From a virus (taxonomy: Duplodnaviria; Heunggongvirae; Uroviricota; Caudoviricetes), in the IMG/VR virus record IMGVR_UViG_2703718777_000022: a DNA stretch of 10,045 nucleotides; one strand, 5' to 3'. Of the stretch, positions 4,653-5,382 are shown one piece after another. The first letter of the stretch is position 1. Every line of letters begins with the position of its first letter. The notes below the pieces were generated by a model. It searched no databases and was not told the DNA's origin. It saw only the letters and a program-made list of their open reading frames with translations. Position numbers and translations under genes: made by a program.

Positions 4653-4911
4653 ACGTGAAAGCCTTATCGAAAAGCACCTCGTCGCTGAAGTGAAAAAAGC
4701 TGGCGGAGTGGCCTTTAAGTTTGTATCTCCCGGTCACCGCTCGGTACCGGATCGCATTGTCCTGCTACCCGGTAGTCGTATCGTTTTCGTTGAATGTAAA
4801 TCACCCGGCAAGCCACCACGGCCTGACCAATTGCGCGAACATGAACGTCTGCGGAAACTGGGCTTTACCGTAGTGGTGCTGGATAGCAAAAATCTGGAGG
4901 GGATATTGTGA
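4642..4911 (+). CDS. VRR-NUC domain nuclease (PD-(D/E)XK fold)
   Basis: PDRIVLLPGSRIVFVECKSPGKPPRPDQLREHERLRKLGFTVVV carries the D...ExK catalytic arrangement typical of VRR-NUC. I prefer the ATG at 4642 (GGGA 6 nt upstream, 11-nt overlap with the previous gene) over the track's ATG at 4615; either is possible. Confidence 0.7.
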   Translation: MAYERESLIEKHLVAEVKKAGGVAFKFVSPGHRSVPDRIVLLPGSRIVFVECKSPGKPPRPDQLREHERLRKLGFTVVVLDSKNLEGIL

Positions 4912-5084
4912 GTAAACGTGACGACCCACAATTGCGGGTACGCATCCCGCAAGACTTGAAAGACGCACTGGAAAAAATTTCCAGAGAAAACGACAGAACA
5001 CTAACCGCCGAAATCACCCGGCGGTTACGTAAAAGTTTAGAGGATGAATCCACTATTCATTCTCAGGATTTAGCAACTTCTTAA
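4908..5084 (+). CDS. Arc-like ribbon-helix-helix DNA-binding protein (58 aa, GTG start); absent from the ORF track
   Basis: GTG at 4908-4910 overlaps the VRR-NUC stop (TGA 4909-4911); GGAGG at 4895-4899. Translation is VSKRDDPQLRVRIPQDLKDALEKISRENDRTLTAEITRRLRKSLEDESTIHSQDLATS, stop TAA 5082-5084. The strand-helix-helix pattern (RVRIP...L...A...TLT.EI..RL) is Arc/Mnt-like. The first 45 aa are a close paralog of the N-terminus of the minus-strand gene 5053..5382. Confidence 0.5.
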   Translation: MSKRDDPQLRVRIPQDLKDALEKISRENDRTLTAEITRRLRKSLEDESTIHSQDLATS

Positions 5085-5382
5085 GTTTTTCCATCGCTTC
5101 AATAAGCTCGTATTTGTTTTCATAAACCCATTCGGCCTGATACTCTCGATGGTACGTTGTTTTAAGTTTCTCGAGAAGATCCCTGAGTATGAGAATCTCA
5201 TCAGCAGCTTCCTCAAACCCCCTAGATGTATGAAGTAATTTGTCCTGAAGAATAGTAGATTCCAACCGGCTAACGATCTCAGAGGTCAGTGTTCTCTTAT
5301 TAGCCCGTGCTTTCTTCTCCAAAGCCTCTTTTAGCAATTCTGGTATGCGTACCCTCAACTGCGGGTCGTCTCTTTTGCTCAT
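5053..5382 (-). CDS. Mnt-like repressor: N-terminal RHH domain plus C-terminal helical extension
   Basis: 109 aa. N-terminus MSKRDDPQLRVRIPELLKEALEKKARANKRTLTSEIVSRLE is an Arc/Mnt-type RHH; the C-terminal ~60 aa are charged and helical-looking (LRDLLEKLK...EAMEKLKKLL), consistent with an oligomerisation domain. AAGGGA lies 6 nt upstream of the ATG on the minus strand. Roughly 42% GC by eye, lower than its neighbours. Its 3' end overlaps the plus-strand RHH gene by 32 nt. Confidence 0.7.
   Translation of the reverse strand: MSKRDDPQLRVRIPELLKEALEKKARANKRTLTSEIVSRLESTILQDKLLHTSRGFEEAADEILILRDLLEKLKTTYHREYQAEWVYENKYELIEAMEKLKKLLNPENE

What the first reader, a model, noticed from the sequence alone, without database searches (positions are those of the whole stretch)
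4908..5382. Convergent, 3'-overlapping pair of paralogous RHH genes with an inverted duplication of their 5' ends
A 58-aa Arc-like gene (plus strand, GTG start, below the ORF-track length cutoff) and a 109-aa Mnt-like gene (minus strand) face each other and overlap by 32 nt at their 3' ends. Their first 15 codons are about 35/45 nt identical by my alignment (VSKRDDPQLRVRIP versus MSKRDDPQLRVRIP), so 4908-4952 and 5338-5382 form an inverted repeat; similarity then decays to the amino-acid level across the RHH domain. Convergent overlapping transcription of two related repressors could give mutual antisense interference or a bistable switch. The two proteins might also heterodimerise. The short homologous arms could in principle support inversion.
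Basis: seen in the sequence. Interest (0 to 1): 0.7.

Follow-up and report, generated by a model that had tools for sequence, protein, structure and literature searches.

The report
Convergent Arc/Mnt-like repressor pair in prophage
Two related small DNA-binding repressor genes face each other in an E. coli prophage and almost certainly read the same DNA sites next to an antirepressor-like gene, a rearranged version of the classic phage P22 "second immunity" control rather than a DNA-flipping switch.

Summary
A 58-aa GTG-started gene (S, 4908-5084, +) and a 109-aa gene (L, 5053-5382, -) are both Arc-family ribbon-helix-helix proteins. They converge, overlap by 32 nt, and share their first 14 residues (35/45 nt). 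RefSeq already annotates both genes.

The "inverted duplication" is not a recent DNA repeat. Synonymous sites in the shared head are saturated and the longest exact shared word is 10 nt. None of the 13 E. coli genomes or 10 viral contigs with this allele shows an inversion.

The shared head is the DNA-reading beta-strand, conserved in both protein lineages across Enterobacterales. S and L belong to a mobile four-gene cassette: S, then L on the opposite strand, then operators, then orf58 and a Rha/Ant-like gene. I found it in 11 alleles of two specificity types. In each type both proteins carry the same predicted base-contacting residues, and the control region holds only one matching palindrome type.

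My best reading is a P22 immI-like antirepressor control in which the Arc-like and Mnt-like proteins share operators. S would be made from the upstream, probably early lytic, operon and L from its own promoter. Antisense interference and heterodimer formation remain possible but untested. This is a new variant of a known kind, of moderate interest.

The parts
4615..4911 (+). VRR-NUC nuclease gene, the last replication-module gene before S. Its TGA stop overlaps the GTG start of S (GTGA).
4908..5084 (+). S: 58-aa Arc-like RHH gene with a GTG start. The core, residues 1-45, is conserved. The tail, residues 46-58, is variable and is the part that overlaps L.
4908..4952 (+). Left arm of the diverged inverted repeat: codons 1-15 of S, encoding the N-terminal arm and the beta-strand PQLRVRIP (the DNA-reading head).
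5002..5027 (-). GC-rich hairpin inside S, 26 nt downstream of the L stop codon on the minus strand. It is a candidate terminator or 3' stabiliser of the L transcript (dG -18 kcal/mol, z -2.97). It is built from the codons for TAEITRRL, including the rare CGG CGG pair.
5053..5084 (.). 32-nt 3'-3' overlap of S and L.
5053..5382 (-). L: 109-aa Mnt-like gene, with an RHH domain (residues 1-47) and a C-terminal helical extension (predicted helices 55-76, 78-88 and 90-104).
5338..5382 (-). Right arm of the diverged inverted repeat: codons 1-15 of L.
5401..5420 (.). O1 region: outward-facing half-sites GTGAGG-N8-CCTCAC that bracket the candidate -10 of the L promoter.
5409..5437 (-). Candidate L promoter: -35 TTGAAG (5437-5432), 17-nt spacer, -10 CATGTT (5414-5409). 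Its position is conserved across alleles, and the -10 reads CATAAT in several of them. Inferred only; it was not found by the consensus scan.
5428..5456 (+). Candidate rightward promoter of orf58-rha: -35 TTGACT, 17-nt spacer containing O2, -10-like TACTAA. The -35 TTGAC[AT] is conserved in all alleles. Inferred only; it was not found by the consensus scan.
5440..5450 (.). O2: palindrome CTCATTGTGAG.
5468..5478 (.). O3: palindrome CTCACAATGAG, the reverse complement of O2.
5499..5675 (+). orf58: conserved 58-aa helical protein with no family assignment. It is the first gene after the regulated promoter in every cassette.
5735..6541 (+). Rha/Ant-like gene (Pfam Phage_pRha; PHROG anti-repressor families over residues 1-115), the presumed regulated cargo.

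Best explanation
S and L are the Arc-like and Mnt-like regulators of a mobile, P22-immI-like 'second immunity' cassette. The cassette is S (+), L (-), three operators with back-to-back promoters, then orf58 and a Rha/Ant-like gene. It sits between the VRR-NUC and SNF2 genes of the prophage's replication gene block. The prophage is about 41 kb, and its main CI/Cro switch lies about 9 kb away.

The shared 14-residue N-terminus is the DNA-reading head, kept identical by purifying selection. Both proteins should therefore bind the same palindromes, CTCA-N3-TGAG.

Inferred circuit. In the lysogen, L is made from its own promoter, binds O1-O3 (presumably as a higher oligomer through its C-terminal helices), keeps orf58-rha off and autoregulates. 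S has no promoter or operator of its own and is translationally coupled to the last gene of the upstream operon, so it is made only when that operon is transcribed, probably early after induction or infection. S then occupies the same operators as a simple dimer, shutting off L synthesis and capping Rha/Ant expression, as P22 Arc does.

No + strand terminator separates the genes, so the same upstream transcription must run antisense through L and on into orf58-rha-SNF2. That would add transcriptional or antisense interference against L.

Shown: homology, conservation, cassette architecture, and covariation between head type and operator type. Inferred: promoters, timing of expression, oligomeric states, and who displaces whom.
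For: Family assignment:
- Both proteins hit Pfam Arc.
- The S profile hits P22 Arc (E about 1e-6) better than Mnt (0.018). L hits AmrZ (1e-5) and Mnt (0.0024) and carries a 60-aa helical extension.
- The HMM alignment places S residues Q8, R10 and R12 on Arc residues Q9, N11 and R13. From established knowledge, these are the base-contacting residues of Arc, and swapping the N-terminal residues switches Arc/Mnt specificity (Knight and Sauer 1989; Raumann et al. 1994).

Conservation:
- P7, L9, R10, R12 and I13 are invariant in 38 S clusters, and residues 6-13 are invariant in 18 L clusters.

Operators:
- Only one palindrome type occurs, and only in the L-orf58 intergenic region.
- P22 has two different operators at the equivalent positions: Oarc in the Pant spacer and Omnt after the -10.
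- In type A alleles (window, Serratia, Salmonella, Xenorhabdus, metagenome, Sodalis), both proteins carry Q-R-R with CTCA-N3-TGAG operators. In type B alleles (two E. coli, one Xenorhabdus), both carry Q-K-R with CCAC-N-GTGG operators. There are no exceptions.

Cassette:
- It recurs as a unit in different phage backgrounds and positions. The pair is present in all 11 alleles; the only decay is a frameshifted S in a Sodalis endosymbiont.
- S is tightly coupled to whatever gene lies upstream: a GTGA overlap, a 1-nt gap or a 4-nt gap. No operator lies upstream of S.

Context:
- The cargo gene hits PHROG anti-repressor families.
- The main CI/Cro pair is elsewhere in the prophage.
- No + strand terminator-like site lies between positions 1 and 7838. 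The top-ranked terminator-like hairpin of the window lies just after L on the minus strand.
- P22 immI roles are taken from PMC11016777 and PMC8022706.
Against: - No expression, binding or oligomerisation data exist for this cassette.
- The consensus promoter scan found no sigma-70 promoter in 4500-5800. My promoters rest on a conserved TTGAC[AT] and on conserved positions only.
- The C-terminal extension of L has no detectable similarity to the Mnt tetramerisation domain. Foldseek matched only the RHH part, and no hit had E below 0.001.
- S is not in the arc position of the ant operon; orf58, of unknown function, is. The Arc analogy is therefore functional, not positional.
- The upstream operon lies on the same strand as the CI gene, so read-through from the repressor gene in lysogens, and hence some S in lysogens, cannot be excluded.
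- In type B the two heads are not identical. Only the three predicted contact residues agree.
- Whether the Rha-like protein is an antirepressor at all is untested.
Confidence: 0.55

Rival explanations
1. One reading: the essential logic is RNA-level. Convergent, overlapping transcription of S and L gives mutual antisense or collision interference and so a bistable switch. The protein similarity is secondary.
For: Convergence with 3' abutment or overlap holds in all alleles, from an 18-nt gap to a 32-nt overlap, leaving no room for a bidirectional terminator. No + strand terminator-like site follows S, so upstream transcription must cross the whole L gene in antisense. A strong hairpin (z -2.97) lies just after L, inside S, and is partly conserved in type A alleles.
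Against: The length and sequence of the overlap are not conserved. It involves only the variable tail of S. One allele has an 18-nt gap and another has none. No Rfam family matches. This view does not explain why both lineages keep the same DNA-reading residues and covary with the operators. It is compatible with the best explanation rather than exclusive of it.
Confidence: 0.3
2. S is an anti-L factor. It lacks the C-terminal oligomerisation helices, and either forms mixed RHH dimers with L or competes for half-sites without cooperativity. Either way it breaks L's repression and turns Rha/Ant ON when the upstream operon fires, acting as a dominant-negative paralogue.
For: The RHH domains are 60% identical and share the same strand and most of the same core residues. 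S has no extension, whereas L has predicted helices 55-104. S and L from the same locus are slightly more alike than shuffled pairs (0.633 against 0.604, p 0.004). Both carry RTFTAEVI in the Serratia allele, and both carry KK...PEELK in the metagenome allele.
Against: The covariation effect is small, rests on two loci, and could equally reflect short gene-conversion tracts. As far as I know, P22 Arc and Mnt are not reported to form mixed dimers.
Confidence: 0.15
3. The inverted 5' arms are recombination substrates. Inversion of 4953-5337 would swap the two gene bodies between the two promoters, giving a phase-variable switch.
For: Geometrically, inversion between the arms would keep both reading frames in register. 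The arms are 78% identical.
Against: The longest exact match is 10 nt, and synonymous sites are saturated. No invertase gene lies nearby. Zero of 13 E. coli genomes, zero of 10 IMG/VR loci and none of the other alleles show the inverted order.
Confidence: 0.02
4. S and L are not a functional pair. S is a decaying duplicate, or it regulates something else (or the pair is a toxin-antitoxin or partition RHH protein set), and its position next to L is an accident of insertion.
For: The top PHROG matches carry the label 'partition protein ATPase'. The site between VRR-NUC and SNF2 is a cargo hot spot.
Against: S is under purifying selection. It always travels with L, orf58 and the Rha-like gene in different phage backgrounds. 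No toxin or ParA gene is adjacent. No operator-like site occurs elsewhere in the window, and the two matches in the remaining 46 kb are at chance level.
Confidence: 0.05

Closest known systems
Phage P22 immI region (mnt / arc-ant, with sar RNA)
   Same: Both have a small Arc-family repressor, a longer Mnt-type RHH repressor with a C-terminal extension, and a gene with an antirepressor-type N-terminal domain. In both, this module is separate from the main CI/Cro (C2/Cro) switch. In both, the Mnt-type gene is transcribed divergently from the cargo promoter, with operators in the promoter spacer and just after the -10.
   Different: In P22, arc is the first gene of the ant operon and is divergent from mnt. 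Here S is convergent with L and fed by an upstream operon, and orf58 sits in the arc position. P22 Arc and Mnt read two different operators (Oarc and Omnt), whereas here both proteins share the reading head and a single palindrome type. In P22 the two promoters overlap completely, whereas here the candidate promoters are back to back with overlapping -35 boxes. No sar match was found. The module lies in the replication gene block, not the late operon.
Lambda-type CI/Cro switch at OR
   Same: Both have two repressors that bind the same set of three operators between divergent promoters. One carries an oligomerisation domain and is made in lysogeny; the other is a small dimer made during lytic transcription. 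For this cassette that is a functional analogy inferred.
   Different: The proteins here are RHH paralogues, not HTH proteins. The small one is not encoded behind the rightward promoter but arrives from a convergent operon. The module controls a Rha/Ant-like gene, not the whole lytic programme.
Convergent-promoter interference switches of P2/186-type phages
   Same: Opposed transcription units of the lysogenic and lytic programmes run into each other.
   Different: In those phages the promoters face each other over a short distance at the 5' ends. Here the genes meet at their 3' ends, and interference is only inferred.

Membership tests
Arc/MetJ-type ribbon-helix-helix proteins (Pfam PF03869 Arc) | Significant match to the Arc RHH domain (strand-helix-helix) above Pfam's gathering score | tested here: met
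   S scores 38.1 bits and L 37.1 bits against a cut-off of 20.4. PDB profile hits go to Arc, Mnt and AmrZ.
P22 Arc-type regulator | Small protein of about 50-60 aa consisting only of the RHH domain | tested here: met
   S is 58 aa. Homologues are 47-63 aa, with conservation limited to residues 1-45.
P22 Arc-type regulator | Encoded as the first gene of the antirepressor operon, autoregulated from Pant | tested here: not met
   S lies upstream, convergent with L and coupled to VRR-NUC. orf58 is the first gene of the cargo operon. No operator lies upstream of S.
P22 Arc-type regulator | An operator of its own, distinct from the Mnt operator | tested here: not met
   The reading head is identical to that of L, and only one palindrome type is present. 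P22 has Oarc and Omnt.
P22 Mnt-type repressor | N-terminal RHH domain followed by a C-terminal coiled-coil tetramerisation domain | tested here: inconclusive
   The RHH domain matches 1MNT with E 0.0024. The AF2 model (pLDDT 82) shows C-terminal helices 55-104, but there is no sequence or fold match to the Mnt C-domain. The oligomeric state is not testable here.
P22 Mnt-type repressor | Gene divergent from the antirepressor promoter, with operators overlapping that promoter | tested here: met
   L is divergent from orf58-rha. O2 lies between the conserved TTGAC[AT] and the -10-like box, and O3 lies just downstream. This holds in all alleles. The promoter itself is inferred.
immI-type secondary immunity module | The regulated gene encodes an antirepressor that inactivates the primary repressor | not testable with these tools
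   The only evidence is N-terminal Phage_pRha and PHROG anti-repressor matches. A separate XRE-family CI / Cro pair exists.
Invertible DNA switch | Both orientations present in populations or relatives, a site-specific invertase nearby, or long exact inverted repeats | tested here: not met
   No inversion in 13 genomes or 10 viral contigs. No invertase gene nearby. Longest exact repeat 10 nt.
Type II toxin-antitoxin (RHH antitoxin) or ParG-type partition system | An adjacent co-directional toxin gene, or a ParA-type ATPase gene | tested here: not met
   The neighbours are VRR-NUC, orf58 and Rha.
Known antisense RNA of immI (sar) or any Rfam family | Covariance-model match | tested here: not met
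   No match with E up to 1 in 4400-5900.

The most novel reading that the evidence does not exclude
The cassette is a self-contained bistable switch built from two RHH paralogues with one shared DNA-reading head. It would be a CI/Cro-like pair that arose by duplication, wired through 3'-overlapping convergent transcription. A single event, read-through from the lytic operon, would both produce the small competitor S and antisense-silence the oligomeric repressor L, flipping control of an antirepressor. Short gene-conversion tracts between the inverted heads would keep the two specificities locked together.
Probability: 0.2. Interest if true: 0.65.

Novelty: new variant of a known kind. Interest (0 to 1): 0.4.

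Why it matters
Arc and Mnt are textbook models for beta-sheet DNA recognition and for secondary immunity in P22. This cassette shows a natural alternative wiring of the same parts. The two paralogues keep one specificity instead of two. The small one is driven by another operon, and the genes collide at their 3' ends.

If the inferred circuit holds, it is a compact natural example of coupling an antirepressor switch to the state of a phage's early transcription. The two specificity types (Q-R-R with CTCAC operators, Q-K-R with CCAC operators) offer a ready-made pair for studying how RHH specificity and operators co-evolve.

In practical terms, the cassette is carried by prophages of Shiga-toxin-producing and other E. 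coli, Salmonella, Serratia and Xenorhabdus. It may influence cross-induction between co-resident prophages.

Tried and rejected
- Inversion isomers. I searched 5,426 complete E. coli genomes with the pair region. All 13 carriers are collinear, as are the viral contigs. Rejected.
- Recent duplication or gene conversion of the 5' ends. A Nei-Gojobori analysis shows saturated synonymous sites. Rejected as an explanation for the window's repeat. Patchy locus-specific similarity in two other alleles is left open.
- Known RNA families. Rfam gave nothing.
- Cultured phage relatives. blastn matched only the VRR-NUC flank, and tblastn with S gave only hits below 60% identity.
- Consensus promoter scan. 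It found none in the region, so the promoters are proposed from conservation only.
- Extra operators elsewhere in the prophage. There are none in the window, and the two matches in 46 kb are at chance level.
- Fold search of the L model. Only the RHH part matched, and nothing matched the C-terminal extension.
- PDB entry 9pio, labelled 'Arc family DNA-binding protein', turned out to be a ClpXP substrate study. Irrelevant.
- Literature searches for a description of this convergent arrangement found only P22-type immI papers. A search for the operator core sequence found nothing useful.
- Toxin-antitoxin or partition roles. Rejected for lack of partner genes.
- Apparent single-gene cassettes. 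L104 has an intact but uncalled L gene, and L013 has a frameshifted S gene.
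Full report
**What is in the sequence**

The window is the integrase-proximal 10 kb of a prophage of about 41 kb, inserted between yfhH and yfhL of E. coli. It is 100% identical to NZ_CP027548.1.

On the + strand runs a block of replication genes: DUF2800, DUF2815, DNA polymerase, ANR, DUF4406 and VRR-NUC. The 58-aa ORF S follows at 4908-5084. The 109-aa ORF L lies on the minus strand at 5053-5382. 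Next comes a 116-nt intergenic region rich in repeats. After it, on the + strand, come orf58 (5499-5675), a Rha-family gene (5735-6541), SNF2 and an HTH gene. The integrase is on the minus strand.

The prophage's XRE-type CI and Cro genes lie about 9 kb upstream of S, outside the window. The S/L pair is therefore not the primary immunity switch.

**Check of the observation**

- S starts at a GTG that overlaps the VRR-NUC stop codon (GTGA) and follows a GGAGGGG Shine-Dalgarno sequence.
- S and L overlap by 32 nt at their 3' ends.
- Both are Pfam Arc-family proteins, and they are clear paralogues: 31/52 identities, E 4e-20.
- The first 45 nt match at 35 positions, more than any of 100 shuffles of the region gave.
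- PGAP already annotates both as Arc family DNA-binding proteins, so the short gene is not a new gene call.

**The "inverted duplication" is a conserved protein head, not a DNA repeat**

Between S and L, codons 2-14 differ at 7 of about 8.8 synonymous sites (pS 0.79). That is as saturated as codons 15-47 (pS 0.84). Non-synonymous divergence is 0.03 in the head against 0.36 in the rest. The longest exact shared word is 10 nt. The higher nucleotide identity of the arms is therefore what purifying selection on 14 identical residues produces.

The same head, MSKRDDPQLRVRIP, is nearly invariant in 38 clusters of short S-type proteins and in 18 clusters of L-type proteins. These come from Escherichia, Salmonella, Erwinia, Serratia, Yersinia and Xenorhabdus.

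S orthologues have dN/dS of about 0.07-0.26.

Nothing supports inversion. All 13 E. coli genomes with this allele are collinear. So are the 10 IMG/VR contigs and every other allele. No invertase gene is nearby.

**What the head is**

The profile alignment to P22 Arc places S residues P7-Q8-L9-R10-V11-R12-I13-P14 on Arc residues P8-Q9-F10-N11-L12-R13-W14-P15. From established knowledge, Q9, N11 and R13 are the base-contacting residues of Arc's beta-sheet (Raumann et al. 1994). Exchanging the N-terminal residues switches Arc/Mnt specificity (Knight and Sauer 1989). S and L therefore carry the same predicted reading residues, Q-R-R.

In line with this, the control region holds only one palindrome type, CTCA-N3-TGAG, at 5440-5450 and 5468-5478 in opposite orientation. 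An outward-facing half-site pair, GTGAGG-N8-CCTCAC, lies at 5401-5420. The palindrome occurs nowhere else in the window (expected 0.1). In the remaining 46 kb of prophage and flanking DNA it occurs only at chance level.

**A conserved mobile cassette**

I used VRR-NUC as an anchor and looked up S homologues in their contigs. The same four-gene unit (S, then L on the opposite strand, operators, a small orf58-like gene and a Rha/ORF6N/Ant-like gene) appeared in several backgrounds:
- E. coli
- Serratia
- Sodalis, where S is frameshifted
- Salmonella, where the cassette follows SNF2 rather than preceding it
- Xenorhabdus
- a metagenomic element, where it sits next to a different integrase

Most relatives of this prophage carry quite different cargo at the same site, such as membrane proteins and methyltransferases. 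The cassette is thus one of many inserts at a hot spot.

In all alleles S and L converge and abut. The overlaps are 32, 32, 26, 17, 9, 4 and 0 nt, and one allele has an 18-nt gap. The overlap involves only the non-conserved tail of S.

**Two specificity types covary with the operators**

| Type | Alleles | Strand in S | Strand in L | Predicted contact residues | Operators |
|---|---|---|---|---|---|
| A | 6 distinct | PQLR[VIA]RIP | PQLRVRIP | Q-R-R | CTCA-N3-TGAG |
| B | 3 distinct | LQFKLR[VI]P | AQMKIRLP | Q-K-R | two or three CCAC-N-GTGG palindromes |

In type B the two strands differ in their buried residues but share the three outward-facing ones. Neither operator type occurs in the control region of the other cassette type. 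Both paralogues thus change together with the DNA sites. This is the strongest computational evidence that both bind them.

The geometry is also conserved. A TTGAC[AT] box has one site just upstream of it, one in the 17-18-nt spacer before a TA-rich -10-like box, and one just downstream. On the other strand a CAT[ACG][AGT]T -10-like box abuts the first site.

**Comparison with P22 immI**

I read the original P22 record. In P22, mnt is divergent from arc-ant. Oarc fills the Pant spacer and Omnt (AGGTCCACGGTGGACCT) follows the -10. These are two different operators for two proteins. Arc represses mnt and moderates ant, and Mnt represses arc-ant in the lysogen (PMC11016777, PMC8022706).

This cassette uses the same parts. 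The S profile matches Arc best. L matches Mnt and AmrZ and carries a helical C-terminal extension. The cargo gene matches PHROG anti-repressor families.

The wiring differs in four ways:
- S is not in the cargo operon; it is fed by the upstream operon.
- orf58 occupies the arc position.
- The two regulators share one specificity.
- The candidate promoters are back to back rather than fully overlapping.

**Proposed mechanism**

These steps are inferred unless marked otherwise.
- L is expressed from its own promoter in the lysogen. It binds O1-O3, represses orf58-rha and limits its own synthesis.
- S has no operator or visible promoter of its own and is tightly coupled to whatever gene precedes it. 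It therefore reports on transcription of the upstream operon.
- When that operon is on, S accumulates and occupies the same operators without L's extension. As in P22 Arc, this would shut down L synthesis and cap Rha/Ant expression.
- The window has no + strand terminator-like site before position 7839. Its best terminator-like hairpin lies on the minus strand just after L, inside S (dG -18 kcal/mol, z -2.97). The upstream transcript should therefore cross L in antisense and continue into orf58-rha-SNF2.

I put about 0.55 on this overall picture. The direction of S's effect, co-repressor or anti-L, is the least certain step.

**Caveats**

- No sigma-70 consensus promoter was detected by the scan.
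- The C-terminal domain of L has no detectable relative.
- The upstream operon is co-directional with the CI gene, so some S expression in lysogens is possible.
- Rha's antirepressor activity is assumed from family labels.
- The NJ tree of 45-residue domains is weak evidence. It places type A S and L as sister clades, consistent with a duplication within that lineage.
- S and L from the same locus are slightly more alike than shuffled pairs (0.633 against 0.604, p 0.004). Five of the ten pairs in that test were matched only by equal contig length. The effect rests on two loci with shared derived patches. It could reflect short gene-conversion tracts or co-adaptation, for example mixed dimers.

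**Verdict**

The element is a new variant of the P22 immI kind of antirepressor control, not an invertible element. The genes are already annotated. What appears to be undescribed is the conserved convergent wiring and the single shared specificity. That judgement rests on three unproductive literature searches, which are not exhaustive. Interest is moderate.

Noticed in passing
window 4911-6585; loci L024, L026, L036, L042, L057, L074, L090, L097: The interval between VRR-NUC and SNF2 is a cargo hot spot in this prophage family. Most relatives (43 of about 100 loci in the largest group) carry a minus-strand membrane protein there. Others carry DNA methyltransferase-like genes or other ORFs instead of the Arc/Mnt cassette.
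   Followed up: partly
window 5499-5675: orf58 is a highly conserved 58-aa protein (27 invariant columns in 14 sequences) with no Pfam or PHROG family. It is always the first gene behind the regulated promoter, in the position arc holds in P22. The identical protein (WP_001007475.1) serves both type A and type B cassettes, so it does not determine specificity.
   Followed up: partly
L002 2320-2385; L014 4970-5040; L109 (P22) 338-354: The type B operators (AACCACGGTGGTT) share the 9-bp core CCACGGTGG with the P22 Mnt operator (AGGTCCACGGTGGACCT). Yet the type B heads (Q-K-R) differ from Mnt's strand sequence, PHFNFRMP.
   Followed up: partly
L011 3267-3738; L107 3001-3475: S and L from the same locus share derived patches not seen in other loci: RTFTAEVI in both Serratia proteins, and MSKK...PEELK in both metagenome proteins. 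Third codon positions in these patches are mostly identical. This could be short gene-conversion tracts between the inverted paralogues, or co-adaptation.
   Followed up: partly
window 5002-5027: The hairpin inside S is built from the codons for the invariant TAEITRRL and uses the rare Arg codons CGG CGG. Other type A alleles use AGG CGG, CGG CGA or CGA CGG, which keep most of the pairing. This hints that the structure itself is under selection.
   Followed up: partly
window 4905-4914 and 5443-5452: The 10-nt word ATTGTGAGTA occurs both at the S start codon and inside operator O2. ATTGTGA also precedes S in type B loci, which have different operators, and ATTGTGAGG precedes arc in P22 (L109 355-363). 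It is probably a ribosome-binding context or chance.
   Followed up: no
window 1446-2045 (-): A 199-aa predicted membrane protein is encoded on the minus strand in the middle of the + strand replication gene block. It is another antisense-oriented, moron-like insert.
   Followed up: no
L002 228-989; L003 1-1235: Related prophages with type B cassettes carry further antirepressor-type genes just upstream (Ant, BRO-N), and one also carries a TIR-domain gene. Several antirepressor or defence cargos are thus stacked in the same gene block.
   Followed up: no
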